Shown: positions 1 through 30,776 of the stretch, in pieces
How positions within the stretch are numbered: the first letter of the stretch is position 1
How the letters are laid out: each line of letters opens with the position of its first letter
Assembly (NCBI RefSeq): GCF_037042905.1
Contig: NC_087251.1
Coordinates: 34,784,001-34,848,000, forward strand
Reading direction: 5' to 3'
Length of the DNA stretch: 64,000 bases
Source of the DNA: Lytechinus pictus
Taxonomy: Eukaryota
Position numbers and translations under genes: made by a program
The notes under the pieces: model-generated
Database searches by the model: none
The model's input: the letters and a program-made list of their open reading frames with translations, nothing else
Told to the model about the DNA's origin: nothing

Positions 1-1640
1 GCCCTTTGATAATAGAATTAACAGTAATATTATGAGAAACTGTCTCCACCACTTTACTAAATGTAAAGAAATGTGGATTTGTATTAAAGTGTCAAATCAA
101 AATTACGAAATTTTAATAACAGCATGTTAATAACGAATTATAAGATATAGACTGATACCATTGATTGATGTATACAAAGACATTGTAATAAGAGTACTAG
201 TGAAATTAAACTTACCGCGATAATTCAAACGAACGAGACGATCGGTGCTACGTATTCAGCATGATGACTAAAAGCAAGAAACGAATGATCGTACGAGAGA
301 CTCAACGAATGAACGAGTAGACGGACGAAAACGTAAAAACAAAATAAACGGTTTATGTTTTTTCCTCGTCGAAAGTAAAGGCTTAACTAGAAGACGATTT
401 CAACTAAAGCGCCACCTCAACCCGTTTCAGGAATAGTCGTACTATCCCAGTCGCGTTAAAAAGTAAATAACCGTCGGGTATAATTCAGCAATCTTCTTGA
501 CATGATACTATGAATTTACTGAGCAAATTTAGTCAAACCCCTATACTAAGGCCCTAGATGTGTGATTTTTTTCTGCAAACCATGGCATTAATATTCGCCT
601 CACAAACCAGCTCGACAACATTCATAGATTCATTAATATCATGACGTGATGCAAGTATATTGTTTTCCGGGTATACATGACCATGATGACTGAGGTTTCA
701 AGTCACTCAGGTTGGGAAGACGACGAAAGCTGCAAATGTTTTTCTTTTACTGTCCAAATACCACCTTGCTAATGCTGGGTAAATATTTTTTGGGTATTCC
801 TTACCTGAAACATAAACACAATAAATCCATGTTAATTAAAATCTCGATTCTGATAATTATTTCAGAATGTGATGATTATGCACTAGATCTACAAAATAAA
901 ACCAAATTGTCTCTTCATCATTACATTTTACATTAATTTTCTTATAACTTTTTTAATGTATTCATTATGATATTTATATGATGTGCCTACAACCTTTTAA
1001 ACGAGAAAGCTACATCTGCTGCTTAATTCATGTACAATTTTGCATAATCATCAATAAATGCCATTCTTGAATTGAATTGAATTGAACTGAATTGAACAAT
1101 AACCGGCGTTATTATCGCCAGTTCATAATCATCATCATCATCTCCATGCGGTAAATATTTTAGGGTGTTAATTATTTACGAATGTTTCATCTAGATACAA
1201 TAACATAAAGTTAGGCCTATGTTTAAGTCATATATTATACGATTGTTACAATTTGTTCCTTAACCGCGCATATAATGGCCCTTTCCCATTCAAAACCCAA
1301 GATCCTTTGAGCAACAACCATGGTATAGCAAAATATTAATTTTCTGTATAAAATAACAAAAATATGAAACGGCTGGATAGTCTATATTCAGTAATGCCAA
1401 CACGACACATGATGTCCAAAATGGTAACGATGTATAGATCTATTACTTTTACGTGCATGGGACTGTCAATTGTTAGAACTATTAACTGTCCAAAAAGAAT
1501 TACGAAAATTGTACAAAAACAATCTTAGCATATCTATATGTAAGAAGAAGTGTAATATTAAACTATTCTAATCCTTGGTCTTCTTTTGACTTTGAATTTT
1601 GGTTCTTTATCAGTTTCTATATCGATAGGCCTATTCAGGA

Positions 1641-2293
1641 AAGAAAACGTTCTTTCCGCCCCCACACGAGTAGAACGGGAAGGTTGTGACGACGAAGGGC
1701 ATGGGAGGGGGGAGGGGTTATGGGGAGGTGTAGAGGATAGGGGGACACATGCTTTGGGTTGGAAGGGGGTTTGTAATCTTTTGCTTCCGTGTTTTTTATT
1801 TCCTTTTTTTCTTTCTTTTTTGTTTTTGTTTTGCTTCTTGGCTATTTTCAAACTCCTTTATATAACAACATAGGGTCGGGGGGGGGGGGGTGGTAGGTAT
1901 GTAGGGTTCAGGGCCAGATGCTGATGTTGTTAGAGGATATGAAATATTTGAGGAATGAGGCCAAGGTGGGGAGGGGGGGGTGGGTTATGGAAAATCCTTG
2001 TTAATGGCTTCAATTCGACTAGGTTATATTAATGATTGGCTTTGTGTATTTGGAAAATTTGTTATGTTGTGAATATTTTGACACTAGAAAAAAAATTGAG
2101 TACGTTGAGTTTTATTAGGTTTTATTGTAACACTAAAGGAAAAAAGAGAAAATGTAAAGTGTTAACTATATGAGTTTACAATGTATTCATATATTAATTT
2201 GTAAAGATATATTGTATTGACGTATGTATTTTATTTTGTATATCACATGTATGAATTGAAGTTGTTGACAAATAAAAACTTCTTAATACAAAA
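1641..2293 (+). mobile_element. Probable 5'-truncated retroposon 3' end inserted in duplication copy A only
   Basis: Absent at the homologous site ~13598-13601. Ends with AATAAA...ACAAAA and is flanked by AGGA direct repeats (1637-1640, 2294-2297). Confidence 0.6.
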
Positions 2294-2753
2294 AGGATCC
2301 ATCCATTCGCACTCACATTTTTTAGGATTACCATGGGAAAATAATTCACCATGAGGTTTACAACTCGATCTACTATGGGACTGTGCACTGAATCACACTA
2401 TTATCCTTATAAGTAAAGTAGAAATTGTATGGAAATTCAGAAAAGGATATAATTGGCATGCTATCAATATTACACAAAAGTACTTACTCAGCACTTAGTT
2501 CCTCCTGCACTAAGAAGTGAATGGGGGTAGCAAGCTGCCCCAAAATCAAACAAACGAAAAATAAAAAATAATCAAACATACAAAATAAATGTAATATATC
2601 TCACCTTTTAAACGTTCGTTACGGATGTTCCTACGAGGGCAAACGTAATGCCTTTCATTTACGAAATCGATTAACGCCCGAATATCGAATAACATTTATT
2701 TTTCTACGATAATTTCACCTGCCATAATCTTGGCATGTGAAAATATTTTTACC

Positions 2754-2980
2754 CAGGGGCGGCGCCAGGGTATAGGGGGCAAGACAACCAAAAGGTGACG
2801 TCAGTTTGTTGGTTTTGTTTTTCATTTGAATAATAGTGTTCTAATGGAGTTCAAGGAACTAATACGATCTTTTATTTTTTAAATTCGTTTTTGTATTCTT
2901 CTCCTCTTTTGTAATTTTCTTTAAGTACTTTAAACAAAGGGGGAAACGCCCCCACCCCCTCACTGCCGGCACCGCCCCTG
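2754..2980. mobile_element. MITE (paralogous copy at ~14061-14269)
   Basis: Terminal inverted repeats (TIRs) CAGGGGCGGCGCC...GGCACCGCCCCTG. Confidence 0.75.
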
Positions 2981-3349
2981 TAAGGAATTACACCGAATCC
3001 TTGCTAACAATTCAACGAGATTTGTAGGGGAAAAGCCTTACAACCTTTTTCTTTAAAAAAAAGTTGTAAAGCTTTCGGCACATATTCATTAAAAAATATG
3101 AAATGAATTCGGTTACCCGTAGGTGACAACAAAGCAATCTTCTTGATATGACACAATAACATTTATGGAGATGGGCTAAGATCAAGTTTCGGTCAGGCTC
3201 CTATGGGGGACCCTATCATTTTGCCAAATTAACTTACTCTACAAATCCTGGCACTAAAACCAAACCGTAACCTATATCCATAAATGTCAAAGTTTCATTA
3301 AGATCAGTAAGTGATATTGCCGTGTTGTTCTAGGGGTAAAATGACTCAC

Positions 3350-6300
3350 TCATACAAATGTTCAGTCTGACATCTGTCCTCTCTCTTATATCGGCATGTA
3401 TCCATGTCCACAGGAACATGATTTTAGCTCCAAACAAAATTTTCCTCTAAGATCCAGTGTTTTAAATATTTATCCGCAGCTCCACAAATAAGTCTCTGTC
3501 CGCTGATGTTCACAATATTATCAAGTTCAAATGGGTAAATCAAGGGGAGAACAACCGTCCAGAGACCAATCGACAAACCTCCCGTGAGGTTCGGATAAGT
3601 CTCGGCGAAGTTCTATCTTAAAAATGATGTCTAGTCCGTACACGAAAACTACAGGGATCCGTCCAAGAAGAAATTTGTTGACTGATTCTGCATCTGGAGT
3701 TCTTCGGAAAGTATTGTGTCCAAAAAGTAATAGACATTTATCCAGAACTTGGAACTTGAAGTCATCAGGATTTGTTTCTCAAGTTCAACATTGGAGGAGG
3801 CGTGGTGGATGAAGCGAAGTCAATGATAAGTAAATAAGAACACAAACTTCTCCGGGAACTGAGTCTTTATTGTGGAAACGTTCATGGTACTTTCCATTCG
3901 ATCTCCTTGTCCATATTACGAAAAAAGTTCAAGATAGCTTCCGGAATTTAAATTCTGTGAAAACTGTGAAATTAAAAAGAAAAAGAAAAAGTATCATTAA
4001 GACCAATGCAAAATCATAATGAATACCGGTACAAAAAAGGCGTCACAAACCAACGGGGGGGGGGGGGGGGGGCATCAGCCAGTAATCGGGTACATGCCGT
4101 TAAGTTGAACATTTTGGGTTGATTAACAAAATGTGCAATTACCAAAATGCAATATTTATGGCACAATTAGGAAACTGCACACTTAGTTGATTAGTGACTA
4201 CTCGACTTATTACGGATTTATCAATATGGATCCTGGTCGACTAGCAGTTGGCCTTTGGTTGACCAAAAAGAAGGGAAATGGCATGACCTAAGGAGCAAAC
4301 TTCCCAAAAAGTTGAGAGCCAGCAAAATCAATTTTAAAATCAAAATACAATTTTGTGATATATATCAAGATATAATATTCATGAATTGATGTCACCATTT
4401 TCCCTTTTTCTTTCATTTTCTCCCTTGATTTTCCTTGTCTTTCTTAATCGTTGAACTTTTGAGGGGCATCACCTCCTCCCACCCCCATACATACACCTGT
4501 GGAATGTGAAAGTGATAAAACAGACATTTAAGATAACCTTTTTTAAAAGAAGAGAACATAATCATGAAAATCGTTATATTGGATGAAGACAAATATATAA
4601 TATCCGATGTAATTTTACCTCCTAAATTATGTTTCTATAAAATTCAGAATGGAACGAATTCTAGTTCTCCGAGATGCATTGGCATGATTGGAGATGAATA
4701 AGAACTATGCAGGTAAATGATACTTAACACATGTTCTGGCAAGTATATCAGCGAAAACAGATTAAAATCTAAGTACAAGCTTAAGACGAGTCTTTAGAAA
4801 AGTTTGGATGAGAAATCTTTCCCTCACATTAGTAAATACAAAAGTGACTTGATATGTTTGAAAAGAGTACTACCAAACTTCTTACCTTGATCATCTTCGA
4901 AGTTTTGGCGGGTGGCACAAAATTATTCAGCGGGCCACAGTTTCAGATCTCACGAGAATCCTAAGCCTGTATTCACATATTTTGCTAAAAATATTTTGTT
5001 AAATGGGAATTTCTGTCTATGAATCAGCCACTCTGGTTTTGAGAATGAAAGAATGGAATAAATCGTACCATGTTCAATAGCAGGGTACGCTGGAACTCCA
5101 CCAATAAAAGTTGAAGTGGCTACCTATATGTAATTAAGAGTTATTGTTATGTTAATCGGTTAATGGCAATGATAGCAAAGGCGCCGGAAAACCACTACTA
5201 AAAGTTGAACTGACAACATGGAAAAATAAATAAGAGTTATTATTAAGAGTAAGGCAAATTATTTGATTTCATTAGTAGGAAAGATGGAAAACTGCCTATA
5301 ATAGCTGAAGTGGTTATCCTTAGTAAAAAAAGAGAGTCGTCATCAATATTAATGTTTAAAACGTATAAAGCCTGAAAAGAGAATAAAGATCTTAAGATCC
5401 AAGTTACGAAAATTACATGCCAAAATCAATTATTTGATAATATATGATTGAAAGGGAAATTTTGAAGCATACTTTTCCATTCTTTTCAGCAACTCTGCTT
5501 AAAGTGAAAGAAGAGAAACAATAACATACATTAGCATAGCCGATGGAAGACAAAAAAAAAAATATTATACACCACAGAAAATAAAGGTCTTTATTAAGGG
5601 TTATCTTACAAATGCTAACGAAAAATAACGGTCATCACTAATGTAAGAAGGATTAATCGAAAACCACCAACATCAGTTGAAGTGGACTCCCTTCGTAACG
5701 AAGGAAATAAAACAAGTCTGGAAAAAAAAGTGAGACGTATACAAAGAAACGGAAATATACTTGGATAACATAATAAATCAATTATAAATTTCAATCAGCA
5801 CATAATATTGGACTCTTGTTTTTGTATCAGCCGCCCTGCTTCTAAGAATGAGGGAAAGAAACCAAAGCATATCGTGTCAGTAGGACACGGAAGCATGGTT
5901 AGGGGAGTGCTAGTAAGACAGAGAAAAGAACGTTAATAATAATCTGAAAAGGTTACCTTACATTAAAAAATATATTGTTAATGGTAATGATAGCAGGGTC
6001 GCTGGAAAAAAAACTATCAAAACGGAACTGTCTAACCTGGAAAATAAGAGCCATTATGAATATTCATGTTTAAAAAGTATCAAGCCTGAAAAGAGAAGAC
6101 AATAAAGATCAGAAGTTAAAAGTTGTATAGAAGACGGCCGATACCAGCTGAAGTGGTGTTCCCTGACGAAAAAAAAAGAATCATTGTTCATAATATAAAA
6201 ATGCATCCAGAAAAGAAGAGAATCAGAAGTGGGAAAACAGAAATACACTGGTATTAAATAGTTAATCAATAATAATTTCACTAAGTATTATTGGATTTTT

Positions 6301-9300
6301 TTTTTCCTTTTGATCATCCGCTCTGTTTCTGAAAGAAAGAAAAGAAAGCATATCATGTACGCGGGGCAAAATTAAGGGGGTACTCCTAAGGCTTTATTAA
6401 AAAATATTGCCTATGGTTTTGTAAAGGGTCAGTACAAGACCGCCTTTCGCTACATGTGTAAAAAGAATAATCATTATTAATATTATAAATATTAATATTA
6501 TAATTAAAATGCATCGAACCGCTGGAAAAGTGCTTGCAAAAACCGAGTGGCTACTTTCTGTAAATAGAATCATAGATATTGTATAATATTTTAATTAGGA
6601 CAAAATCATATCAAGTTGGGTCCACTGAGAGATGTTTGCCTGTTTGGGTAACGTAATTTAGAGTTGTTAGCATTTGTATCATGATATATTCTCTATTAAA
6701 AAAAATGTACTACTTTCGTAGAAGACTGTCAATAAACGCTGACGCGAAGTGGCTAACCTGAGTAAATAAGAATTACTATTATTATTAGCATTGTCTTTAA
6801 TCTTATCCAGCCTAAAAAGAAAAAAAAATAGCACATAGAGTTACTGATTCTGCTGTTGAAATCATCGTGACAGTCTTCTCTCTAGGTCTTTGTTGCCTTG
6901 AAAACAGTGATTACTTTGTCAAAAGATATCTACTGAATAAAAAGGAAATATCGATAAATCTAAGCTGAAATTAAAGTAAAGAGAAAATTAACATTTCAAA
7001 CATTAACTTCAGATTTTATCAATAATATTTTATGCTTTTTTTATTCCAGCTTGGCCTGGCACAAGGAACAAGATTTTTTTTTTTTTGGGGGGGGGGGGTG
7101 GGACCGCGGGATTTTTAGAAATCATGGGATAAACTAAGTTAATCATATCTATGAAAATGAAGTTCATAAGATAATTGAGTTTCTCATGAAGTTTTGAGTC
7201 TCAGTTTAATTGTAACCTTAACTGTAATATTGATTTTGTCATACTTATTGGATACTCTTTGACTTTAATAGTTGCGTAATATAATGATATGGAAACAGCT
7301 TAATGGCTTTCGATTAAATGTGAAAAGGAAGTGGAATTACATTGAAATTATTTATTTTTTCTTACCTTTATTTTGACGAAGGGTGAAATGATCGATAGAA
7401 ACAGCAGAGCTTATTGACGGAAAAATGTTGAAGGGGATCATGGTAAAAGCTAGACTAGCTGCTCTCTTACGAAAAAGTGTTTATGCACAAAAATATTGGT
7501 CGATAGATGGAAACTGGTTGCTCTCTGTTAGATGGAGTCTAGATGCTCTGTGATGAAAGGATGACGAAGATAGTGGTAGGAAGGAAGGAGACTAGACATT
7601 TTCTGATTAAACAGTGACAAAACTAGTGGTAGATGGAGGGAGATGAGCTGGCGGAAGATGGAAGGAGACTATTTGTTGTCACATGGAATGTGAAAGGGTG
7701 AAGAAGCTTCTGGTAGATGAAAGAGACTACTACGAAATTAGTTGAAGAAGGAAGGATGCTAGTTTCTCCCAGATGAAAAGGTGACGAAGCTTGAGGTAGA
7801 TGGAGACGAGTGGCTCTCTGACGAAAAGGTGATGAAACTAGAGATAGATGGAAGGGGACTAGTTGCTCTCTGATGAAAGGATGATAGAGCTTGTGATAGA
7901 TGGAGGAGACAAATGTTCTCTGATTAAACGGTGACAAAACTAGTGGTAGATGGAGGGAGATGAGCTAGCGGTAGATGGAAGGAGACTATTTGTTCTCTCA
8001 TGGAAGGGTGACGAAGCTAGTGGTAGATGAAAAGAGGCTGTAATGAAAAGGTGACAAAGCTTGTTGTAGGAGATTAGTTGCTCTCTGTGCAAGGGTGACG
8101 AAGCCAGTGGTAGCCAGAAGGATGCTATTTTCTCCCAGATGAAAGGGTGACACAGCTAGTGATAGATGGAGACCAGTTCCTCTCTGATGAAAGGGTGATG
8201 AAACTAGTGATAGATGGAAGGGGACTAGTTGCTCTGATGAAAGGATGATAGAGGTAGTGGTAGATGGAAGTAGAATACTTGCTCACTGACGAAAGGGTGA
8301 CGAAGCTAGTGATAGATGGAAGAGACTCTCTGATGAAAAGGTGACGAAGCTAGTGGTAGATGGAAGGAGACTAGTTGCTCTCTGATGAAAGGGTGACGAA
8401 GGTAGTGGTAGATAGAACGAGACTACTCGCTCTAAATGGTTACGAAACTGGTTGAAGGAAACTAGTTGGTCGCTTGTGTAAGGGTGAAGAAGCTAGTGGT
8501 AGATGGGAAAGAAACTAGTTGCTCTCTGATGAAAGGATGAGGAAGCTAGTGGTAGATGAAAGAGACTACTTGCTATAAATGGTGACGAAACTAGTTGAAG
8601 AAGGAAGGAAACTAGTTGGTCTCTACTGAAAGGGTGACGAAGCCAGTGGTAGATGGAAGAGACTGTCTGATGACAGGGTGATGAAGCTGTGGTAGATGAG
8701 AGACTAGTTGTTCTCAGATAAAAGGGTGTCGAAACTAGTGGTAAATGGAGTGAGACTAGTTGATATCTGGTAAAAGGGTGACAAAGCTAGTGTTAGATGG
8801 AAGGAGATGAGATGGCGGTAGATGGAAGGAGACTATTTGTTCTCTCATGGAAGGGTGACGAAGCTAGTGGTAGATGGAAAGAGGCTGTGATGAAAAGGTG
8901 ACAAAGCATGTGGTAGGAGATTAGTTGCTCTCTGTGCAAGGGAAACGAAGCCAGTGGTAGCCAGAAGGATGCTATTTTCTCCCAGATGAAAGGGTGACAC
9001 AGCTAGTGATAGTTGGAGACCAGTTCCTCTCTGATGAAAGGGTGATGAAACTAGTGATAGATGGAAGGGGACTAGTTGCTCTGATGAAAGGATGATAGAG
9101 GTAGTGGTAGATGGAAGTAGAATACTTGCTCTCTGACGAAAGGGTGACGAAGCTAGTGGTAGATGGAAGAGACTCTCTGATGAAAGGGTGAGGAAGTTAG
9201 TTACAGAAGGAAGGAAACTATTTGCTCTCTGATGAAAGGATGAAGAAGCTAGTGGTAGATAGAAAGAGACTACTTGCTGTAAATGGTTACGAAACTGGTT

Positions 9301-12300
9301 GAAGGAAACTAGTTGGTCGCTTGTGTAAGGGTGAAGAAGCTAGTGGTAGATGGGAAAGAAACTAGTTTCTCTCTGATGAAAGGATGAGGAAGCTAGTGGT
9401 AGATGAAAGAGACTACTTGCTATAAATGGTGACGAAACTAGTTGAAGAAGGAAGGAAACTATTTGGTCTCTACTGAAAGGGTGACAAAGCCAGTGGTAGA
9501 TGGAAGAGACTGTCTGATGACAGGGTGATGAAGCTGGTGGTAGATGAGAGACTAGTTGTTCTCAGATAAAAGGGTGTCGAAACTAGTGGTAAATGGAGTG
9601 AGACTAGTTGATCTCTGGTAAAAGGGTGACAAAGCTAGTGTTAGATGGAAGGAGGCTAGATGTTCTCTGATTAGACGGTGACAAAACTAGTGGTAGATGG
9701 AGGGAGATGAGCTGGCGGTAAATGGAAGGAGACTATTTGTTCTCTCATGGAAGGGTTACGAAGTTAGTGGTAGATGGAAGGAGGCTCTGATGAAAGGGTG
9801 ATAAAGCTTGTGGTAGGAGATTAGTTGCTCTCTGTGGAAGGGTGTCGAAGCCAGTGGTAGATAGAAGGATGCTAGTTCCTCCCAGATGAAAGGGTGACGA
9901 GAGCTAGTGGTACATGGAAGGAGACAAGTTGCTCTCTGATTTAAGGGTGACGAAGCTAGTGATAGATGGGAGGAGACTAGTTGCTCTCGGATGAAAGGGT
10001 GACAAAGGTTGTGGTAGGAGATTAGTTGCTCTCTGTGAAAGGGTGACGAAGCTAGTGGTAGATGGAAGGAGACTAGTTGCTCTCTGATTTAAGGATGACG
10101 AAGCTAGTTGAAGAAGGAAGGAGACTTCTTGCTCTCTGATTTAATGGTGACGAAGCTAGTGGTGGATGGTAGAGACGCTCTGATGACAGGGTGATGAAGC
10201 TGGTGGTAGATGGGAGACTAGTTGTCTCAGATGAAAGGGTGACGAAACTAGTGGTAGATGGAAGGAGACTAGCTGCTCTTTGATGAAAGGGTGACGAAGC
10301 TAGTGGGGGATGGAAGGAGGAGACTAGTTGCTCTCTGATGAAAGGATGACGTAGCTAGTGGTAGACAGAAGGATAATAGTTGCTCACTGGTGAAAGGGTG
10401 ACGAAGCTAGTGGTAGATGGAAGGAGACTAGTTTCTCTGATTTAAGGGTGACGAACCTAGTATAGATGGAAGGAGACTAGTTGCTCACTGATGAAAGGGT
10501 GACGAAGCTAGTGGTAGATGGAAGAGACTCGCTGATGACAGAGTGATGAAGCTGGTGGTAGATGAGAGACTAGTTGTTCTCAGATGAAAGGGTGACGAAA
10601 CAAGTGGTAGATGGGAGGAGACTAGTTGCTCTTTAATGAAAGGGTGATGGTATTAGTGATAGATAGAAGGAGGAGACTAGTTGCTCTCTGATGAAAGGAT
10701 GACGTAGCTAGTGGGAGATGAAAGAGACTACTTGCTATAAATGGTGACGAAACTGGTTGAAGAAGTAAGGAGACTAGTTGCTCTCTGATGAAAGGATGAC
10801 AAAGCTAGTGGTAGACAGAAGGATACTAGTTGCTCACTGGTGAAAGGGTGACAAAGCTAGTGGTAGATGAACGAGACTACTTGCTATACATGGCGACGAA
10901 ACTAGTTGAAGAAGGAAAGAGACTTGGGCTCTCCTGAAAGGGTGACAAAGCCAGTGGTAGATGGAAGGAAGCTAGTTGCTCTCTGATGGAAGGATTAAGA
11001 GGCTATTGGTAAACGGAAGAAGACTAGTTGATGTCTGGTAAAAGGTTGTCAAGGCTAGTGGTACAGTGAAAGAAATAAATTAGTTTCTGATGAAAGGGTG
11101 ACGAAACTATTGTTAGAAGGAAGGAGACTAGTTGCTCTCTGACGAAAGGATGACGAAGCTAGTTGAAGATGGAAGGCGGCTAGTTGCTCACTGATGAAAG
11201 GGTGACGAAGCTAGTGGTAACTGGAAGGAGAATACTTGCTTTCTGATGGGAGGGTGACGAAGCTCAGATTAAAGAGATTACTAAATTAAACTAGTTTTGA
11301 CAAATCGCTGCTGGCAGGAAACCTGTGGAATAAAATACTTATACATATCCTGGCTCTCAAACAATCTAACATTACAACTAAAATCATCAAACTTAGTTAC
11401 ATTTTTTTTACAGTTTGTGTATATATCGTCATTACTCATTACGAGTTATCAACCAAAATAGTCAACCCCACAATCAACCATACCCTACCAGAATACCAAA
11501 TATCTGGTATATTAAATTAGTTTTCATCCCTTTCTAAGGATGTGATAAATTGTTCAGCCGTATTAAACCTCTTTGGTTGTATGAGCTTTGTTGGATATCA
11601 GTGAAAAAAACTGATGTATAATTGTTCCACAGGAAGATTACTCTCGCGGAGCTTGTTAGATTTTCAAGAGGGTATTTGCTAGTCGATATGGTTGCAGAAG
11701 CTTCTCTTCCAAAGCGCGTGAAGATGAAGGCCCCTATTCATATCCAACACCTGGAACATAAACAAGAAAATAGTAATAATGGAAAATAGTTTGTTTCTGA
11801 CGACTGTTTGGCATTTGATTATACATAAACCACGCACCAAATATACAAACCTCATGGTTTGTTGTCACTTGATAATAATCATCCATTTAAAAAAATAATA
11901 TTTCTATTCATTTTCTAGATCTATCGATAGAATAAATATCAAACCTATTTCATTGCTAGTTTGATTTTGATCATTGATTTCATAATTTCTAAGTACCTAA
12001 TTTGTCTAAAGCCCTTTGATAATAGAATTAACGGTAATATTATGAAAAACTATGTCTCCATCACTTTACTAAATGTGAAGAAATGTGGATCTGTATTAAA
12101 GTGTCAAATCAAAATTACGAAATTTTAATAACAGTTATGTTAATAACGAATTTGAAAATATAGACTGATATCATTGATTGATATATACAAAGACATTGTA
12201 ATAAGATTACTAGTGAAATTAAACTTACCGCGATAATTCAAACGAACGAGACGATCGGTGCTACGTATTGAGCATGATGACTAAAAGCAAGAAACGAATG

Positions 12301-12400
12301 ATCGTACGAGAGACTCAATGAATGAACGATTGGACGGAGGAAAACGTGAATACAAAGTCAACGATTTATGTTTTTCCCTAGTCCAAAGTAAAGCCAAAAG
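3350..12400 (-). ncRNA. Putative spliced lncRNA (or decayed gene) unit; candidate exons ~12400-12229, 11322-7366, 5123-5069, 4966-4886, 3963-3350
   Basis: Canonical minus-strand donors (GCG|GTAAGT, AAG|GTAAGA twice, TGA|GTGAGT) and YAG acceptors flank blocks richer in GC than their surroundings. No continuous reading frame was found. Confidence 0.45.
7480..11270. repeat. ~52-bp minisatellite array, ~3.8 kb, purine-rich on +
   Basis: Consensus GATGAAAGGGTGACGAAGCTAGTGGTAGATGGAAGGAGACTAGTTGCTCTCT repeats with many shortened variants. Confidence 0.95.
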
Positions 12401-15160
12401 ACGATTTTAACTAAAGCGCCACCTCAAGTCGTTTCGGGAATAGTCGTACTATTTTAGTCGCGTTAAGAATAAGTAACCGTCGGGCGATAATGCAGTAATC
12501 TTCTTGACATGATATCATAAATTTACCGAGCAAATTTAGTCAATCCCCTATACCAAGGTCCTAGATGTGTGACCTTTTCTACAAACCGTGACATTAAAAT
12601 TCGCCTCACAAACCAGCTCGACAACATTCATTAAGATCATGACGTGATACAAGTATATTGTTCTCTGGGTATATATAACCATAATGACAGAGGTTTCAAG
12701 TCACTCAGGTCGGCAAGACGACGAAAGTCGCGATTTGTTTTGCTGTCCAAATACCACCTTGCTAATGCCGGATAGACACTTTTGGGGGTATTCCTTACCT
12801 GAAACATAAACACAATAAATCCATGTTAATCAAAATCTCGATTCTGATAATTATTTTAATGTAAGGATTATGCACTAGATCTACAAAAAGAATCAAAATT
12901 ATATTTTCCTCATTACATTTTACATTGTTTTTCATATAAATGTATAATGTATTATGATGTTTATATATTGTGCCAACAACCTTTTTAACAAGAAAGCTAC
13001 AGCTGCAGCTTAATCCATGTACGATATTGCATAATCATCAATAAATGCAATTCTTGAATTTAATTGAATTGATCAATAACCGGCGCTATTATCGCTATCA
13101 TAATAATCATCATCATCTCCATGCGGTAAACAATTGAAGTTGTTAATTGTTTGCTAATGTTTCATCTAGATATAATAATATAAAGAAAGTTAGGCCTATG
13201 TTTTTATACGATTGTTACAATTTGTTCCTTATAAGCGCATATAATGGCCCTTTCCAATTCAAAACCCACGATCCTTTGAGCAACAACCATGGTATAGTAA
13301 AGTATTAATTTCCCCCATAAAATAACAAAAATATGAAACGGATGGATAGCCCATATTCAGTTTTGTCAACACGACACATGATGTCCATAATGGTAACGGT
13401 GTCTAGATCTATTACTATTACGTGCATGGGGCTGTCAGTTGTTAGAACTATTATTTGTCCAATTAAGAATTGTACAAAAACAATCTGAGCATATCTACGT
13501 GTAGGAAGAAGTGGAATATTAAACTATTCTAATCTTTGGTCTTCTTTTGACTTTAAATGTTGGGTCTTTATCTGTTTCTATATCGATAGGCCTATTCATG
13601 ATCCATCCATTCGCACTCACACTTGACTTTTTGAGGATTACCATGGAAAAATAATTCTCCATGGGGTTTACAACTCGATCTGATATGGGACTGTGCACTG
13701 AACCACACTATTATCCTTATAAGTAAAGTAGAAATTGTATGGAAATTCAGAAAAGGATAAAATTGGCATGCCATCAATATTATACAAAAGTACTTACTCA
13801 GCACTTAGTTCCTCCTGTACTAAGAAGTAAATAGGGGCAACAAGCTGCCCCAAAATCAATCAAACGAAAAGTAAAAAAATAATAATCAAACATACGAAAT
13901 AAATGTAATATATCTCACCTTTTAAACGTTCGTTACGGATGTTCCTAGAGGGCAAACGTAATGCCTTTTATATACGAAATCGATTAATGCCCGAATATCG
14001 TTAATGCTTTCTACGATAATTTCACCTGCCATAATCTTGGCATGGGAACGCATTTTTACCCAGGGGCGGCGCCAGGGTATAGGGGGCAAGACAACCGAAA
14101 GGTTGCGCCAGCTATAGTGTTCTAATGGAGTTCAAGGAACTAAAACGATATTTTAATTTTGTTTAATTCGTTTTTATATTCTTCTCCTCTTTTGTAATTT
14201 TCTTTAAGTACTTTAAACAAAATTCAAAGGGGGCAACGCCCCACCCCCTCACTGCCGGCACCGCCCCTGTATGGAATTACGCCGAATTACGCCGAATTCT
14301 CGCTAACAATTCAACGAGATTTGTCGGGGGAAAGCCTTACAACCTTTTTCTAAAAAAAAAAGTTGTAAAGCTTTCGGCACATATTCATAAAAAAAATATT
14401 TAAATGAATTCGATTACCCGTAGGTGACAACAAAGCAATCTTCTTGATATGACACAATAACATTTATGGAGATGGGCTAAGATCAAGCTTCGGTCAGGCT
14501 CCTATGGGGGGACCCTATCATTTTGCCTAATTAACTTACTCTACAAATCCTGGCACTAAAACCAACCGTAACCCATATGCATAAATGTCAAAGTTTCATT
14601 AAGATCAGTAAGTGATATTGCTGTGTTGTTCTAGGGGTAAAATGGACTCACTCATACAAATGTTCAGTCTGACATCTGTCCTCTCTCTGATATCGGCATG
14701 TATCCATGTCCACAGGAACATGATTTCAGCTCCAAACAAATTTTCCCTCTAAGATCCAGTGTTTTTAATATTTATCCGCAGCTCCACAAATTAGTCTCTG
14801 TCCGCTGATGTTCACAATATTATCAAGTTCAAATGGGTAAATTAAGGGGAGAACAACCGTCCAGAGACCAATCAACAAACCTCCCGTGAGGTTCGGATTA
14901 GTCTCGGCGAAGCTCTGCCGCGAAAATGGTGTCGAGTCCGCACACGGAAATAAAGAAATATGTCCACAAGAAGAATATTGTAAAACTGTTTCTGCAGCTT
15001 ACGTTTTTTCCTTAAGTATCGCAAAGAATGTTACCAAATGTTCTTCTTTCTTCGTTGCCATAACCAAATAGTACAAATGGATGTCAGGCATTGCAGTCTT
15101 CTAACTTGCAGTTATCAGGTCTTGTTGGCTATATTCTCAAGTTCAACATTAGAGGAGGCG
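12011..15160. repeat. Segmental duplication copy B (paralogous to 1-3810)
   Basis: Colinear with copy A, shares the MITE, and lacks the 1641-2293 insertion. Confidence 0.95.
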
Positions 15161-15250
15161 TCACATTGTAGATGTAGTGAGGTCGGCGATGAATATATTG
15201 GAAATTCCATCTCAATGTCCATAACTTTCATTCCTCATTCCGTGAAAACG
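14652..15250 (-). other. Exon-like block, paralogue 2 of 3350-3963
   Basis: Acceptor TTTTATTATTCCAG and donor TATGA|GTGAGT; frames are interrupted by stops. Confidence 0.55.
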
Positions 15251-16568: not shown

Positions 16569-19500
16569 AAAAAACAAGATTCAGCTCGCGCTTCGCGCTC
16601 ACATTATATGCTAGGTAAGATATGTATTCCCCCATGGGTCACTTTAAGCAGTCCTACACTGGAAATTTTTTCTTGTTTTCATGTCAGTTTTTAAAAAATA
16701 GTAGCTCACGCTTCGCGCTTGCATTTATTCAAATACCCATCCAGATTATGATCACAAAATTGCTCAGAATGTTTAATTTTTAGGTCTAAATACAATAAAA
16801 TATACAAAACTTTGAGCTTGCACTCGCTTTCCAAAGTTGTTTAAAAGATACCTTATTTGGTTCGTAATTAATATGTTAAGATGTACTTAAAACATAAAAA
16901 ATTGTTAAATTTAGGGGAAAATGTATATTCCGGCCCAATATGGGCGAAAGTTGGATCCGCCCCTAGGAGTAACGGAACTGAACTTAGGTATGAAACCACT
17001 GGTGTACAGATGGGGGCTAGGGGCATGGACCCTTCCCCCCAAAAAAATGAACAAAAAAGGAGAAAAGTATAGAAAACAAAAAGGAAAGGCAAAAGTGGTG
17101 AAATATATCATTTTCTTAACATTACATCAAAATCTATCACAATTTTTTTTGTATTGAAAAGGTCAAAAGTTTGACTCACTTTCTTCACTCGCTCGCAGTT
17201 TTTTCTCAATTTTGCCTCGTACGCATTATGTCTGGCCCCTTCAAATTTTTGACTCATTACGGGACTGTACGGAAGAGATCATAAACTCTGAAGGTCCACT
17301 TTTATAATTCGGAAGCCCCCGGTCCCCCTAAAAATATCAAGGCTACTGGCCCGTTTTGTAACTAGCGGCTAACCTTCAGAAAAGACGTGGTACTTCTATA
17401 CCCCATGGTTCAAAGAAAAGGTATTTGAGTTACTGATGAATTAATCCCCAATATATATCTCTCGTGCTTTTTTTTCTATCCATTTTATTCTACGTCATTA
17501 GCTACAAACATTTCTAATTAAAATAACATAGCAAACTGATCAGTATTGTATTTCCAATATGAATTACCTTATTTTCAGAAATTGAATGAAAGGTCAGCTT
17601 TAAAATGTTTTAAGATTATTTAAAATGTTAAAATCTTTCCTTGTTAAAATCTTTCCTTTCTACAATCTTTTCCTCTTATATGGATAAATCAATATCAAAA
17701 TAAATGTTTTTTCCCTTATTCAAATAAGTTTCTGTCAATAATTACACTGTCTTAGGTTTTGAATATCGACAAATATGAAAATTTGTAATCAAAATGCGGC
17801 ATTGCACGATACAAGTAGAATCATTTAAAAATTTGATTAGCTTTCTGAAGCCGTGTTGTAATGTATAGTAAAAATTCAATTTCGCGTTACTTTTTACTTT
17901 CTTTCCGTTTTAAATCTATATCGTATTTTATATACGAGCAAGGACAGTGAACGAGAGAAAAAAAGAAAACACTATTTGTGATCATAAAAGTGTAATTTCT
18001 TCGTACATCATGGCTCTAAGAAATATCTTGTCATTTGGCTTATCAAATTTCATACATTTTCTGACCATCCTGTATCCATACAGACCACGATCGAGCGCAG
18101 CGAGCGAGGAAAACCAATAAAACACCCTAAAAAGGGAAAGAACATAACTTCCGTCAACTTCAACTTGGGCATGATTCTGATCACCTCGCTCAGCATGTTC
18201 AATGAACCCATTTTGTCACATCCTGTAGCGTACTACTGAACATACGAGCGAGAAAATGTGACATTTTGACTGTGAATATTGATCTCTTATTACTTTTAAC
18301 TTGAAATATTTTGATTTTCGACAGTTTAGAATATTGTAGTTCGTATAATTTCCAATCAGATATCCAATTTGCAACTGACCATTATTAGCATTATTATCTT
18401 TTTTTTTTTTGGGGGGGGGGGGGGGTATTACCTGAAAGTCGGGGGCAGTAGATTGGCAGTATAGTAGTTACGTCACAGTCACCTCTTCTCAGTGAGTGTT
18501 GTTTCATTCTCATCTGTACTATTAAATAAGACAAATTTTATCCCTTTTCGTTATTGATAAGCGATCCCTGATTTTCTCTTAAATTAAATACTAGTATAAC
18601 GTTTGCTCACAATATTATACCAAAAGTATGATCAACCTTTAAAGCGATGGAAGGGTGATGTTTGTTTATCTTTCTGGGTAGACATTGTTTCAGTAGATAG
18701 TCAACGAGGGTGTGAAGCGTTTGAGTGGAGAGTTGTGGACCAGTGGATATTCTTCGGACTTTATCGCTGCACTCAATCCAGGTGGGTGAGGTAAATGGGA
18801 ACCTCGGAAGAAGTTATCCCTTGAAATGCTTGTGCGCTGTGTGAAAGGCCTGTCTGGCTGTCTAAAAGTGGAGCTTTGAGCAGGTGGAAAGTGATGATGG
18901 GGGGGGGGGGTTCATTTTTTCCATTCCTTTTATTTTTGGAGTTGCGTGGCATGATGACAGGTGACACGTGCCGCATCGATTAAAATAACGCGTATGGTAA
19001 TTTACAAGTCTTTTTCAATTAACGCATACTTGCACGCTTGAAATGTACATAAACCCTCTGCTGGAACGCAAAACTCTTTTGTTAATCTATAAACTGATTG
19101 ACAGCTAATTACATTTTAAAATGTGAGCTCTCGGGATCGAAGACGGCGAAAGAAAGACGGAGAGGACCGAGAGAAAGAGTGGATGATTTGATGTCTTCTG
19201 CATGTTTCGCTTTGAACACAAAATAATTCATTATTTCAAGATCAGAAAAAAAGATCACCTTTTCACGGTTTCAGAAATTTAGGTAGGGGTTCCCGATACG
19301 ACCATCAAAGCTAATTAACATTTTTGTAATTGGTTTCTGACAGAGTTAGGGGTGAACCCCCCCCCCCTTCCAAGGATCCTAATTGGAAAATTGAAGTAGG
19401 CTTATTATTTTACCAGATGACCCCACCCGAAAACGATCTATAGGCCTAGTTATGAATTTAATTTCACTCATCGTACGACATGCTAAATCGATGTTTAATA

Positions 19501-20881: not shown

Positions 20882-21359
20882 TCATACAGGGACGTTTCTG
20901 GAGTCTCGGCATCCTCAAAACTATATCGACCTCCTCTCTTTGAAGATCGATAGCATCGTCATGCATCCATGTTTGAAGGAACACGAATTCAACACCATAA
21001 CAAATTTCCATATAAGATCCAGTGAGAAAATATTTCTCAAAAGCTCCACAAATATGTCTCTTTCCGCTGATATAAGAACATCATAAATAGCAGTCTAGAT
21101 CAATCGTAACAAGGGTAGGACGACCGTCCGGAGACCATGCAAACCTCCCGTGAGGTACGGATGAAGTCTCGGCGGAGCTCTGTAGTGAGAGTGGTGTCTA
21201 TCGTCCGCACACAAAAATGACGAGTTTTGTGTCCAAGAAAACTCCAAGATAATTCCAAGAAAACTCCAAGATAACTCCAAGAAAACAGTTCTCTGTTTTA
21301 AGTCCATCTTGTTAATATCCAAACGTATGATCATTTCCTAACTGCCTTGAAAATAATTT
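20882..21359 (-). other. Exon-like block, diverged paralogue 3 of 3350-3963
   Basis: Shares GGTAAAATGACTCACTCATACA, TAAGATCCAGTG, AGCTCCACAAAT and AAACCTCCCGTGAGGT with copy 1. The acceptor is AAATTTCAG. Confidence 0.55.
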
Positions 21360-24292: not shown

Positions 24293-24499
24293 CCTACAGA
24301 GAAATGGCTTCCGGCAACATGACGCCATCGCAGTCTGGGTCAGGGGTACGTAGATACAAGATGCCGGCTTCACGAGGGCGTGGCCGATCGATCCCCTCTT
24401 CCTTGCAAAAGATCGGATTGGTCACTGGCTACTGTCTTGCCCAGTATCACAACTTTTCTTTGACAAATGACACCTTTATTTGAACAAATCTGTCGAATT
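24293..24499 (-). other. Exon-like block with stops in all three minus frames
   Basis: Acceptor TTTTGTATTTTGGTACAG, donor AGG|GTAAGT, and a GC-richer interior. Confidence 0.45.
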
Positions 24500-24943: not shown

Positions 24944-25470
24944 TTATACCCTTTTTACACAGGCTAAAATTTCCTTAACCCCGTACTATAGGTGGGGCTA
25001 AATGGCAATTTAGCCCCACCTATAGTACGGGGTTAAGCTTAGCCCACTTTCTTTTTACACAGCATTTTTGCAAAGTGGGCTAACCCCACCTTTAGTACGG
25101 GATTATTTGGCCCTGCAAAAAAGCAGGGTTATCCCAGCAATTGCGGTGCTAAGAGCGATAGTACGGGGTTAAGATCGCTAGTGTAAAACGAAAGTGGGCT
25201 AAGCTTAACCCCGCACTATATAGTACGGGGTTAAGGAAATTTTAGCGTATGTAAAAAGGTACGAGTGAAGTACTTGTACTACGAATGATCGACAAAAACC
25301 ACTAGTCCGGGGTTAGCGAGTTTCGTGTGTGAAAAGCAAGCATTCCTTATCCGGGGTTAGCGATAACAATTTGGCATGTGTGAAAAGGAAAAAAAATAGT
25401 ACGGGGTTAAGGATAGTACGGGGTTAGCGATAGTCCGGGGTTAAGAAAATCCTGTGTAAAAAGGGTATAA
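24944..25470. mobile_element. MITE with internal AGTACGGGGTTAAG repeats
   Basis: Perfect 20-bp terminal inverted repeat TTATACCCTTTTTACACAGG / CCTGTGTAAAAAGGGTATAA. Confidence 0.85.
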
Positions 25471-27570: not shown

Positions 27571-28538
27571 GTTTGTATGCTTGTCGGCTAACTATGTATG
27601 ATTATATATCAAATGGGTCCCCGGGGGAGCGTTTCATGAAGGACTTGTTTTATTCGACACTGTTTTATCCGAAAGTTGCCATAGAAACAGTGATCCTCAG
27701 CCGATCAAAATCAAGAAAAATTGTCAGATCTGACAACTTATTGGATGAAAATGTTGATCAAACGCTCTCCGGGTCTAAAATTTTCATATGTAAATAACTA
27801 AATTTACAAAGAAAAACGCTGGAGATTTCATTAAATCTGATAATAAAAAAATGACGAAATTATTATTGAATTTTGAAAGCTAAGCAACATTTTAAGAGAA
27901 TCGTTTAATGCACGCCGCCATGAATATTCATTAGATGTGATGAGATGTCATATCCTCACTTTCCTTTTTCTTATGTGATTACTTGAAATCATAATTATTT
28001 CAGATTTTCACACATTTCTGCACGATATGCCTCCATTGTAACAGAATGAGTTACACAAATGAATATTTTATGCAATCAGATGTCAGTTTCCTCATTCTTG
28101 GTAGACAAATTTTTGAATAAATTTACAATTTATAATAGACTATAAAAGAATAAGTAGGGATATGATATCGCCAGCGTTCTCATAGCATATCCATTTCGAC
28201 AGTCATAGACTGCTTCACCGAAATTATGCAAAGCTTTAAATGGTCATCACTATGTTAATCATTGTCCAATTTTGATCAAAATGTCAGTATTTTGTTTGAC
28301 TGATTTTACTTACTATTATTATATATTTACATGTTATTTCTCATCCTGGAGTACCCCCATAACAAAGACTTTACCTATCCCCTTAAAATATTGTTATTAA
28401 TTTGAACTAACTCCAAAGAAATAAAACTGTCCAGTCAAAGGATATTGATAATATACAGATGTAAGGAGTTTTTTTTTATTTAATTAATTAATTAATTATT
28501 TTTTTCTATTTTTATTTTATTTATTTATTCATTCATTC

Positions 28539-28569
<31 letters not shown>

Positions 28570-30776
28570 TTTTTTTTTTTTTGGGGGGGTCAAAGATATC
28601 TCCCAGATCGATGGTTTACAAACATCTAAACATGCATGACAATATGTAACTTTATCCCAAACTAACTCAGTCACAAAAATATTCAAAAATTAACTCACAC
28701 AAAAATTAACCTCCAACCTAAAATAACAATGAGTAGCTTCCTTGTGATAGTGTGGAGTATATTGTGATTTTTTTTTCATTACTGTGACATCGTGTTTTTT
28801 TAATTGTAAGTTGTGGGATCACTGGCTGCCATTTCGAGTGTGAATGGGCGAGAAGGTATAACTTTGTTTACGAATAAGCCGAAGACTGTTGCTATGAATG
28901 GACTCTTGGTATTTATATTCCCAATGTCAGGAGGTGACAAATTATTCCAGGCTCCTTGTTTTTCGACTCGCTCACATTCTTCAGATTGTTTAAAAGAGAG
29001 ATGCTGTACATAGGGAAAACGGAGAGAGAGAGAGAGAGAGGGAGAGGGGGAGAGAGAGTTATGTAATGTGGGGTAAGAGAATTGTAGAAAAGAAGTGAAA
29101 AGGAACAGGTGAAATAGATAACTATGGCGTGGCAGATGCTAGGAAAAAGAGATGACATCTTTGAGCCGATTGGCTGTTTGAAAGACGCAAGTTGGAATAT
29201 CGAAGAGAAAGAGTGGATGAGAGAGTTACGTAAATATAAGGAACAATGGCGAGCCGGAGAACTCAAATTTGGAAAATCAATTCGTTAAGTAATCAAGTCC
29301 CGGTTTCTAATGTTGAGGAGGAATAATCTGACACACTGCGTCGCGGTGACGTCGCGCGGTTTTGGGGCATAAAATTATGAAATGGAAGTGATTTGCTTGA
29401 AGTTAATTTTGTGAATTATGCTGGTTAATTTTCAGAGTTATACTTAATTTTCTAAGTTATGTAAAAGTTAGTTTCCGAGGCTAAATTATTGTCATGTTCT
29501 ACATGACTACAACTTAGTATAATTTAGCCTCAGAAACTAACTTTAAAAGAAAATGAAACCCCAAAGTTAATATCAATATCATTGATAAATACAAGATAAT
29601 CAAAATGAATAACCGAATCCGATTTTACTTCTTTGATCGAGGGAATGGGGGAAATAGAGAAAGAGAGGGGGAAGGGAGGGGGAGAGAGAGGGGGGGGGGG
29701 GGAAAAAGACGACGAAAAATGAAAATGAATAAAAGGGTGGAAAGAAAAAAAGCAGGGAATCTGAATTACAAAGAGAAAAAAAACACAAATGGTTGGTGGT
29801 GTTGTGATGATCTGATCTTAGTTGACTGGTGTTGTTACGTCATCACATCACAGTGATGATGTCATGTCCCACTTCCCTTTTTTCTTATTTGTTATTACAT
29901 GAAATCATGATTATTTCATATTTTTACACATGTGTGTATGTCCCCCTTGTGACAAGAAAAGTTGCAGCAAAGATTATCTTACACCCTAAATCAGTAGCCA
30001 ATCCACTTTTTCATTCTTGGAGACCAAAATTCGAAATTTCATATAATAAAATACAAAAGAATAAGTGGAGATATGACATCATCAGCTCATTGCTCATACT
30101 GTTTCACCGAAATAATACCAAACTTTGAAATGTTATAACTTTGTTATTCCTTGTCCGATTTTGATGAAATTTTCAGTATTGTGTTTACCTGATTTTACAT
30201 AAAAACTCCAGACTTGAGGACTACCACCCCTCTAAACTGAAAAAGAAACATATCACTGTCCCATTTTAGAAATTAAAATATAAAATTCATCTCGCGCTTC
30301 TTGCTCGTAATTTTTAGATTTATATATCGCTCTTTTCTTATATGAAGCAAAATAATGTAATGCTCTTACAAGCTAGAAAAGTCTGTTAGGTTTTCGAGAT
30401 GACCTTTGGGGTGCATTTTGTTTGATTCCTATTCCTTTTAAAGCAACAATGGATGGAATGGATTCAGTTAAAAAAACGTTTAACAAAATATTTCTTATGA
30501 AAGATTCTTACTTGATATTCGGTATAATAGCAAATGAAATTGTTCGAAATCATGGATATAATTTTTGAAATACTCGGGAAGTGATCGTACTATACTCCTA
30601 CTTTGAAAGACTTAAAGAATGACTAACAAACAACGATGTCTGACAGACAGAATGACTGACAGACAAAAGTGTCTGACAGACAGAATGGCCGACAGGCAGA
30701 ATGACTGACAGACAAAGTTTATAAACTAAACTAAACTAATTTATAAATGGTTAAGTGATTAGGCCTATATCACAGA

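What the first reader, a model, noticed from the sequence alone, without database searches (positions are those of the whole stretch)
216..29003. Candidate tandem family of multi-exon, repeat-containing non-coding genes on the minus strand, divergent from Rab4
Seen: across ~29 kb, GC-richer blocks are repeatedly bounded by minus-strand YAG acceptors and strong donors (exon ends at 216, 3350, 4886, 7366, 12229, 14652, 18432, 20882, 24293; an acceptor with a (CT)n tract opens a block at 29003). Paralogous blocks keep their splice sites, yet the larger ones I translated have stops in the frames tried. The CpG-rich first-exon-like block (12229-12400, 216-400) offers only ATG-CTN-AAT-ACG-TAG. Inference: this is a duplicated spliced lncRNA locus whose exon architecture is retained without coding capacity, or a decayed mucin-like gene cluster.
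Basis: partly seen in the sequence, partly recalled or inferred. Interest (0 to 1): 0.72.

Follow-up and report, generated by a model that had tools for sequence, protein, structure and literature searches.

The report
Spliced repeat-rich sea urchin non-coding locus
Beside a sea urchin's Rab4 gene lie about 29 kb of partly duplicated DNA that show no protein-coding signal yet keep their splice-donor motifs between copies, so this is likely a spliced long non-coding RNA gene carrying a 3.7-kb repeat block, though no RNA data could be obtained to confirm it.

Summary
The listed motifs are real: 9 of 9 donors and the 29003 acceptor are there. The DNA is sea urchin, Lytechinus-like. Gene-like layout on the minus strand is modestly above chance: 21 strict donor motifs against 12.2 expected, 9 on plus, and a T-rich minus strand mirroring Rab4. 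All 10 GTRAG motifs survive in both recent copies (P 0.0005-0.07 by null). Nothing shows coding, past or present: no codon periodicity, frame-breaking indels, no Pfam or credible protein homolog. The 'mucin' block is a 52-nt minisatellite with no codon signal. The 'gene family' is overstated: one 3.7-kb duplication plus a third copy of one block; the rest is single-copy, so one internally duplicated gene fits as well. One stem-loop is kept in all three B copies. Best reading (0.5): a lineage-specific spliced, repeat-bearing lncRNA. Transcription is untested: no sequencing run was listed. New member of a known kind.

The parts
216..480 (-). A1: CpG-rich block ending in a donor; either a first exon with promoter or a 52-nt internal exon (216-267, acceptor at 267); holds the 4-codon ORF MLNT
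   Evidence: CpG o/e 2.28, as high as Rab4's 5' region at 1.55; donor and acceptor; only ATG; 51 of 52 nt identical to A2
805..888 (-). X1: candidate 84-nt exon with the strongest donor of the region (CAG|GTAAGG); could also be a recursive AG|GT site
   Evidence: kept in copy 2
1641..2295 (+). Insertion present only in copy 1, ending in AATAAA and an A-rich tail; likely the 3' end of a retroelement (inferred)
   Evidence: gap in self-alignment; edges
2488..2630 (-). Two candidate micro-exons (2488-2509, 2605-2630), both borders kept in copy 2 (13798-13819, 13919-13944)
3014..3090 (-). 21-bp A/U-rich hairpin, arms identical in copy 2 (14322-14381); may be a small palindromic element
   Evidence: z -4.5 and -7.1
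3113..3345 (.). Palindromic MITE-like element just behind the B1 donor (copy at 14414-14640); an older relative at 468-681
   Evidence: inverted and direct self-matches at about 60%; MITE label is inferred
3350..3963 (-). B1: 614-nt candidate exon, acceptor TTTCACAG, donor TGA|GTGAGT, 6-11 stops per minus frame
   Evidence: no homolog
3541..3620 (-). Stem-loop kept in all three B copies (also 14847-14919 and 21114-21192)
   Evidence: 49 of 54 columns identical B1-B3 against 167 of 244 elsewhere; 2 of 150 shuffles fold as well on minus, 12 of 150 on plus; 0 of 24 pairs with a two-sided change
4886..5123 (-). C: 238-nt candidate exon, donor AAG|GTAAGA
5150..6790 (-). Seven further degenerate copies of the acceptor edge of block C (about 90 nt each, 58% mean column identity over 8 units)
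   Evidence: alignment A4; 7 of the 12 best-scoring acceptors of 1-34500 lie in 5371-6811
7366..11322 (-). D: 3957-nt candidate exon, acceptor TTCCACAG at 11322, donor AAG|GTAAGA at 7366
7550..11290 (-). Minisatellite, about 70 units of 43-55 nt (52 commonest) with higher-order blocks; minus strand 65% C+T, 11% G; 47-60 stops per minus frame
   Evidence: same array read by Lytechinus pictus model XP_054759221.1
11642..11750 (-). E: candidate exon with a good acceptor at 11750; donor uncertain
12229..12490 (-). A2: second copy of block A
   Evidence: CpG o/e 2.18
12799..12880 (-). X2: second copy of X
14652..15250 (-). B2: second B copy; 3' part 96.6% and 5' part 78.9% identical to B1 over aligned columns
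15816..16394 (+). LINE remnant (zf-RVT domain) between B2 and F
   Evidence: Pfam PF13966, E 2.8e-08
18432..18760 (-). F: weakly supported block; donor CAG|GTAATA, no acceptor found
20882..21340 (-). B3: oldest B copy, 73-79% identical over about 330 nt; donor kept, 5' border unresolved
24293..24499 (-). G: 207-nt candidate exon, 49% GC, acceptor TTGGTACAG, donor AGG|GTAAGT
28783..29003 (-). H: block opened by a (CT)n acceptor; donor uncertain (28976 or 28783)
33519..41018 (+). Neighbour, not part of the finding: Rab4, seven coding exons, intact 210 aa
   Evidence: Pfam Ras on one exon

Best explanation
This stretch holds non-coding blocks bounded by splice motifs on the minus strand, partly duplicated, and is likely one spliced long non-coding RNA gene (or two or three in tandem) that would be transcribed away from Rab4 and would carry a 3.7-kb pyrimidine-rich repeat exon. 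Shown: motifs, duplication, closed frames, absence of codon signal, retention of donor motifs, strand skew. Inferred: RNA polymerase II starts at the CpG-rich A blocks or near the Rab4 promoter; the blocks are spliced in the order H-G-B3-F-B2-X2-A2-E-D-C-B1-X1-A1; the RNA is not translated beyond short ORFs; selection acts on 5' splice sites (U1 binding) and perhaps on the B stem-loop, not on codons; the weakly folded C/U-rich 52-nt units would act as a multivalent landing pad for pyrimidine-binding proteins, making a nuclear or egg-stored RNP in the way repeat domains do in Xist, Rsx and Firre. The locus grew by segmental duplication (B3 first, then B1/B2 with later homogenisation of the 3' part), exon-edge duplication and minisatellite expansion.
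For: Donor motifs enriched on minus and not on plus: 21 vs 12.2 +/- 4.4 expected, 9 vs 14.1 +/- 3.8; 21:9 split P 0.043. AT skew: minus strand T-rich in 28 of 38 blocks of 3701-27300 (P 0.004), the mirror of Rab4, where 22 of 27 blocks are T-rich on plus (P 0.0003). All 10 minus-strand GTRAG motifs in the duplicated 2.9 kb are kept in both copies with no gain or loss, against 2 of 5 on plus and 52% for 548 control patterns (4 of 338 controls with 9 or more sites keep all); P 0.007 stratified by region, 0.0005 to 0.074 with local-flank nulls. No coding signal: B1-B3 differences by codon position 26/24/28 in the best frame, 11 of 36 single-base changes synonymous; 1 of 20 indels a multiple of three; longest ATG ORF 41 aa in the 5.3-kb chain A2-E-D-C-B1-A1 and 79 aa in the whole 7.1-kb chain, no longer than shuffles. 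CpG o/e above 2 at both A blocks. One stem-loop more conserved than the rest of B (permutation P 0.016; 2 of 150 fold shuffles).
Against: No transcript was seen; every exon is predicted. Each statistic is modest and several were tried. The matrix score did not separate strands for donors. Acceptor-like motifs are not kept above background (TTNYAG 6 of 12). Seven of the 10 kept donors lie in a stretch that is 95% identical anyway, at least three are poor donors, and one lies in a hairpin arm; patchy gene conversion could mimic selection. Introns are as alike as exons between the recent copies. The 23-nt identical run over the B donor is borderline (P 0.05). The stem-loop has no two-sided compensatory change, paired positions are not significantly better kept when single-sequence folds are used (Fisher P 0.09-0.23), B3 alone folds no better than shuffles (z -0.8), and long hairpins are no denser here than in the rest of the window (20 in 1-30000, 38 in 30001-64000). 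Skew and donor bias would also be left by a dead gene.
Confidence: 0.5

Rival explanations
1. Unprocessed pseudogenes of a fast-evolving, lineage-restricted protein (mucin-like or otherwise) that lost coding capacity before the duplications and now drift; splice motifs and skew are leftovers.
For: Exon-sized GC-richer blocks, a very large repeat exon and S/T-rich readings resemble mucin layout; one B frame has no stop shared by all copies and slightly more conservative changes; lncRNAs derived from genes rarely keep detectable similarity (PMC5577775, passages).
Against: No codon periodicity in B or in the array; unit 52 nt; S+T 10 of 17 reached by 13% of 400 shuffles; no Pfam family at E 0.01 or better in 30 frame translations; only two weak WD40 matches among 1.84 billion proteins for one B1 frame; nothing for a second frame among longer proteins or in the PDB. 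Pure drift does not predict 10 of 10 donors kept.
Confidence: 0.2
2. Not a gene: ordinary intergenic DNA made of a segmental duplication, a minisatellite, MITEs and LINE scraps, with splice motifs picked out by eye.
Against: Three partly independent strand signals agree on minus; A blocks look like unmethylated promoters.
Confidence: 0.13
3. Block A1 is the promoter and non-coding first exon of a protein-coding gene lying left of the window; A2 is a duplicate of it, and the other blocks are alternative 5' leader exons or debris.
For: A has promoter-like CpG content, a strong donor and a 4-codon upstream-type ORF; the A1 donor points out of the window.
Against: A multi-kilobase leader with a 4-kb repeat exon and many upstream ATGs would be very unusual (own knowledge); it does not explain B, C, D or G. 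Not testable: no genome was held.
Confidence: 0.12
4. A host transcript for small RNAs (novel miRNA, snoRNA or piRNA), kept spliced so that these are released.
For: Two strand-favouring hairpins in the duplicated unit (z -3.2 and -4.7 for B1 and B2; -4.5 and -7.1).
Against: 0 Rfam matches at gathering score in 64 kb, one sub-threshold match (SNORD99, E 0.33) in 1-34500; no tRNA; the B hairpin has a 4-nt loop and its loop end is the best-kept part, unlike a miRNA (miRNA geometry from own knowledge).
Confidence: 0.03
5. An intact coding gene broken by assembly indel errors.
For: A 4-kb repeat is error-prone.
Against: Rab4 is intact over 7 exons; unit lengths recur in higher-order blocks; B1 has 6 stops of three kinds in one unbroken frame; the L. 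pictus model changes frame within the array in the same way.
Confidence: 0.02

Closest known systems
Repeat-bearing spliced lncRNAs: Xist, Rsx, Firre (PMC6316617, abstract and outline; PMC7734150, passages; PMC6633197, search listing only)
   Same: Multi-exon non-coding layout with a large local tandem repeat that could gather RNA-binding proteins; splice-site conservation is a recognised sign of constraint on lncRNAs (PMC7734150).
   Different: No homology; no RNA, localisation or protein partner shown here; part of the locus is itself duplicated in tandem.
lncRNAs derived from lost protein-coding genes (XIST from LNX3, JPX, FTX; PMC5577775, passages)
   Same: Exon-like architecture without an ORF next to a conserved gene pair (Rab4, CCSAP).
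   Different: No ancestral protein or syntenic coding gene could be identified; origin from a gene is neither shown nor excluded.
U1-motif-rich chromatin-retained lncRNAs (bioRxiv 10.1101/310433, abstract and section 11)
   Same: High density of 5' splice-site motifs (3.4 per kb in the duplicated unit against 1.3 per kb elsewhere), donors kept while acceptor-like motifs are not.
   Different: Shown in mouse and human cells; here only motif counts, and whether the motifs are exonic is unknown.
Sea urchin egg interspersed-repeat, non-translatable poly(A) RNAs (Costantini 1980; Ruzdijic and Pederson 1987; Calzone 1988: titles and one sentence seen in PMC6146417; papers themselves not read)
   Same: Long, non-translatable, repeat mixed with single-copy sequence, sea urchin; an association with U1 RNA is named in one title.
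   Different: The citing paper describes them as polyadenylated intronic sequences; expression in eggs is untested here and no sequence comparison was possible.
Gel-forming and membrane mucins, PTS-repeat exon (recalled)
   Same: One very large repeat exon with C-rich, G-poor sense strand and S/T/P-rich readings.
   Different: Unit not a multiple of three, no open frame, no codon signal, no SEA, EGF or vWD domain found.

Membership tests
Spliced lncRNA gene | A transcript longer than 200 nt is made | not testable with these tools
   No sequencing run was listed; only indirect strand signals
Spliced lncRNA gene | No protein-coding capacity | tested here: met
   Stops in all minus frames of 9 of 9 blocks; longest ORF of predicted chains 39-79 aa, not above shuffles; no codon signal; micropeptides not excluded
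Spliced lncRNA gene | Splice sites are used or under constraint | tested here: inconclusive
   10 of 10 donor motifs kept, P 0.0005-0.074; acceptor-like motifs 6 of 12; use not observed
Tandem gene family | Two or more complete units, each with a start and a 3' end | tested here: not met
   Only A, X, micro-exons and B are repeated; no minus-strand AATAAA between 7372 and 15611; a further unit left of the window cannot be excluded
Mucin (pseudo)gene | In-frame PTS tandem repeat, unit a multiple of three | tested here: not met
   52-nt unit; 13 of 69 units are multiples of three; substitutions 111/105/107 by codon position, synonymous 27 of 100 distinct changes against 28% possible
Mucin (pseudo)gene | Flanking SEA, EGF, vWD or CysD domains, signal peptide or membrane helix | tested here: not met
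   No such Pfam family in 30 frame translations at E up to 1; two unrelated sub-threshold hits
Unprocessed pseudogene | Recognisable intact parent or ortholog | tested here: inconclusive
   None found for the frames searched; C, E, F, G, H and most other frames had Pfam only
Gene-derived lncRNA (Xist type) | A coding gene at the syntenic position in relatives | not testable with these tools
   No echinoid genomes held; metagenome scans found 0 loci
snoRNA or miRNA host gene | Known or canonical small-RNA precursor inside | tested here: not met
   0 Rfam matches at gathering score; lineage-specific small RNAs would be missed
piRNA cluster | Strand-biased 1U small-RNA output | not testable with these tools
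   No small-RNA data
Egg interspersed-repeat poly(A) RNA | Stored in egg, polyadenylated, off polysomes | not testable with these tools
   No RNA data; features recalled or taken from titles

The most novel reading that the evidence does not exclude
This is a selected, U1-site-rich, repeat-scaffold lncRNA of sea urchins, convergent on the Xist/Rsx design, with a three-copy stem-loop module, and is a defined genomic source of the long non-translatable, U1-associated repeat RNAs stored in sea urchin eggs, whose genes and purpose have stayed open since the 1980s.
Probability: 0.08. Interest if true: 0.7.

Novelty: new member of a known kind. Interest (0 to 1): 0.38.

Why it matters
Sea urchins have more than 5,000 predicted lncRNAs (PMC7854572, passage), so one more is ordinary. 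This one is of some use because its internal duplications act as a built-in comparison: donors appear kept while codons are not, which is the sign of a constrained spliced RNA, and it offers concrete targets (junctions, a 52-nt repeat for FISH and pull-down, one stem-loop). If it proved egg-stored or chromatin-bound it would give an invertebrate deuterostome case of repeat-scaffold lncRNA and a handle on the egg's non-translatable repeat RNAs. The array also seems to cause a false protein annotation in Lytechinus pictus.

Tried and rejected
RNA evidence: the look-up of sequencing runs on 3300-7700 listed no RNA holder; this is no evidence either way, and no reads were laid. No genome was held. 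Protein searches: B1 first frame, 0 of 263 candidates among longer proteins; 2 hits among 1.84 billion representatives, both WD40 repeat proteins matching one 20-25-residue stretch, judged chance; second B frame as a three-copy profile, 0 of 983 candidates and 0 PDB sequences; Atlas scores 0.81 (array ORF) and 0.76 (third B frame), at the level of shuffles. Pfam on 30 frame translations: two sub-threshold hits only. Selenocysteine or stop read-through: rejected, B1's six stops are TAA, TAG and TGA mixed. Mucin ancestry of the array: rejected as unsupported. HECTD1 as parent gene: rejected, no match in the window outside the array. Rfam, tRNA: nothing. Further copies of the B stem-loop: only the 3 training copies score well among 14 matches. 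Structure in the array: 1 of 3 minus-strand samples folds better than shuffles. DNA pattern scans: 0 loci in viral contigs and 0 in two metagenome scans. Extra conservation of the A exon: weak (P 0.03). Literature: 10 searches listed no paper on this locus; only the top listings were seen and most subscription papers are not held. The splice weight matrix used recalled generic frequencies.

Full report
Setting. The window is sea urchin DNA. Rab4 lies on plus at 33519-41018 and splices to an intact 210-aa frame; CCSAP exons follow on minus. Earlier notes on this genome call it a sea urchin, and the only protein hit to the repeat array, 1 of 1500 candidates, is a Lytechinus pictus model. No genome was held and no sequencing run was listed, so all exons below are predictions.

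The observation. All 9 listed donors and the 29003 acceptor exist. Acceptors can be assigned to B1 (3963), C (5123), D (11322), E (11750), B2 (15250) and G (24499), but not to F or B3. In the non-redundant part (3701-30000 without the array) strict donor motifs number 21 on minus against 12.2 +/- 4.4 in local shuffles (2 of 60 reach it) and 9 on plus against 14.1 +/- 3.8; the minus sites tend to sit at a drop in GC (rank P 0.005; 6 of 19 above a 0.10 step, P 0.11). A matrix score built from recalled frequencies did not separate the strands for donors. Base skew agrees: the minus strand is T-rich in 28 of 38 blocks (P 0.004), and the sign flips in Rab4 (5 of 27 blocks positive, P 0.0003). Both A blocks have CpG o/e above 2, Rab4's 5' region 1.55 and its body 0.47. 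So a minus-strand gene-like layout is modestly more than chance.

What is duplicated. 1-3700 matches 12011-15000 at 87-89%, introns included, with a 655-nt insertion in copy 1; a third B copy at 20882-21240 is 73% identical. B1 and B2 are 96.6% identical in the 3' part and 78.9% in the 5' part, which points to an old duplication with later homogenisation (inference). C, D, E, F, G and H have no second full copy. There is no minus-strand AATAAA between 7372 and 15611, and A has an acceptor 52 nt before its donor, so B2-X2-A2 may be internal exons. A family of complete genes is therefore not shown. The acceptor edge of C is repeated seven more times in 5150-6790, like the exon-edge repeats noted elsewhere in this genome (e1-7787436, unchecked).

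No coding signal. Every minus frame of 9 blocks has stops. Between B1 and B3 differences fall evenly on codon positions in all six frames (best frame 26/24/28; 11 of 36 single changes synonymous) and 1 of 20 indels is a multiple of three. Predicted chains give longest ATG ORFs of 39-79 aa, no longer than shuffles. Pfam found nothing credible in 30 frame translations. One B1 frame gave 0 of 263 candidates and only two weak WD40 matches among 1.84 billion proteins; a second frame, as a three-copy profile, gave 0 of 983 and no PDB match; the third scored at shuffle level in the Atlas. Blocks other than B and D were searched by Pfam only.

The repeat block. D holds about 70 units of 43-55 nt; 24 of 69 are 52 nt and 13 of 69 are multiples of three. 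Dropping one base from the consensus gives a reading with 10 Ser+Thr in 17, which 13% of 400 shuffles reach; substitutions by codon position are 111/105/107 and 27 of 100 distinct changes are synonymous against 28% possible. It expanded as non-coding DNA. The last 85 residues of XP_054759221.1 ('HECTD1-like') match array readings at 16 of 16, 28 of 33 and 37 of 41 residues and pass through the same changes of frame; HECTD1 itself has no match in the window. It shows the array is not an error of this assembly, unless both come from one source, which I did not examine.

Signs of constraint. In the 2.9 kb aligned between recent copies, 10 of 10 minus-strand GTRAG motifs are shared with no gain or loss; plus strand 2 of 5; 548 control patterns 52%, and 4 of 338 well-populated controls keep all. 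P is 0.007 with region-matched controls, 0.0005 with local flanks and 0.074 in the most cautious form; 89 of 90 bases of the nine-base sites are identical. Acceptor-like motifs show no excess (6 of 12). In B, a 54-column window is 49 of 54 identical between B1 and B3 against 167 of 244 elsewhere (permutation P 0.016) and folds as a 24-pair stem-loop (2 of 150 shuffles on minus, 12 of 150 on plus), with 2 one-sided and 0 two-sided changes. Against it: B3 alone folds weakly, paired positions are not significantly better kept under single-sequence folds, and long hairpins are common throughout the window. No Rfam family or tRNA matches.

How it most likely works. Shown: motifs, duplication, closed frames, donor retention, skew. 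Inferred: minus-strand Pol II transcription from A or from near the Rab4 promoter (donor-like sites at 34130 and 34308 in Rab4 intron 1 would make it overlap, not diverge), splicing of the blocks, no translation, selection on U1 sites and perhaps the stem-loop, and a C/U-rich, weakly folded repeat exon (65% C+T) binding many copies of pyrimidine-binding proteins. I put this at 0.5; neutral pseudogene relics 0.2; no gene 0.13; promoter and leader of a coding gene left of the window 0.12; small-RNA host 0.03; assembly error 0.02.

Comparison. It would work like repeat-bearing spliced lncRNAs (Xist, Rsx, Firre: PMC6316617 abstract; PMC7734150 passages) and fits the U1-motif enrichment reported for chromatin-bound lncRNAs (10.1101/310433, abstract and section 11). 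It is homologous to none. It fails the mucin tests. Origin from a lost gene, as for XIST (PMC5577775 passages), cannot be tested here. The egg interspersed-repeat RNAs are known to me from titles and one citing sentence and from recall. Ten searches listed no paper on this locus; annotation databases were not available and may already list it as a lncRNA. Look-ups of earlier findings by place and by sequence gave nothing for this locus; one loosely similar fungal case was returned.

Verdict. Observation partly confirmed; non-coding reading partly supported, mucin reading not. New member of a known kind, interest 0.38. Stranded RNA data decide it.

Noticed in passing
window 52066-56958, minus: Three CCSAP exons (Pfam PF15748) face Rab4 tail to tail. 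RAB4A and CCSAP are neighbours in the same arrangement in human (recalled), so this may be microsynteny kept across deuterostomes.
   Followed up: partly
P0008 (XP_054759221.1), residues 816-900: A Lytechinus pictus RefSeq 'HECTD1-like' model ends in 85 residues read from this non-coding minisatellite; likely a chimeric annotation, or a second copy of the array beside a HECTD1 fragment.
   Followed up: partly
window 5150-6790, minus: Seven old, degenerate copies of the acceptor edge of block C, giving a ladder of alternative acceptors before C.
   Followed up: partly
window 805 and 12799; 18432, minus: TTTCAG|GTAAG(G) and TTTCAG|GTAAT read as acceptor and donor at once, the form of recursive splice sites.
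   Followed up: no
window 33700-34400: CpG-rich stretch inside Rab4 intron 1 with two minus-strand donor-like sites (34130, 34308); a possible antisense start overlapping Rab4 exon 1.
   Followed up: partly
window 3014-3090 and 14322-14381, minus: 21-bp A/U-rich hairpin with identical arms and differing loops in the two copies; candidate novel small-RNA precursor or palindromic element.
   Followed up: partly
window 58417-60066 plus; 47737-48294 plus; 15816-16394 plus: Broken non-LTR retroelement pieces: reverse transcriptase matches at 58417-59210 and zf-RVT at 15816-16166; the 47737 frame looks like a LINE C-terminus but had no Pfam match.
   Followed up: no
window 24961-25045, 29461-29540, 36535-36948, 42632-42720, 55833-56155, 57615-57690: Near-perfect palindromes and MITE-like inverted repeats, and a four-copy element at 36084, 49636, 50109, 55086.
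   Followed up: no
window 42000-47050: AT-rich stretch behind the Rab4 stop ending in AATAAA near 47036; possibly a 3' UTR of about 6 kb (by eye).
   Followed up: no
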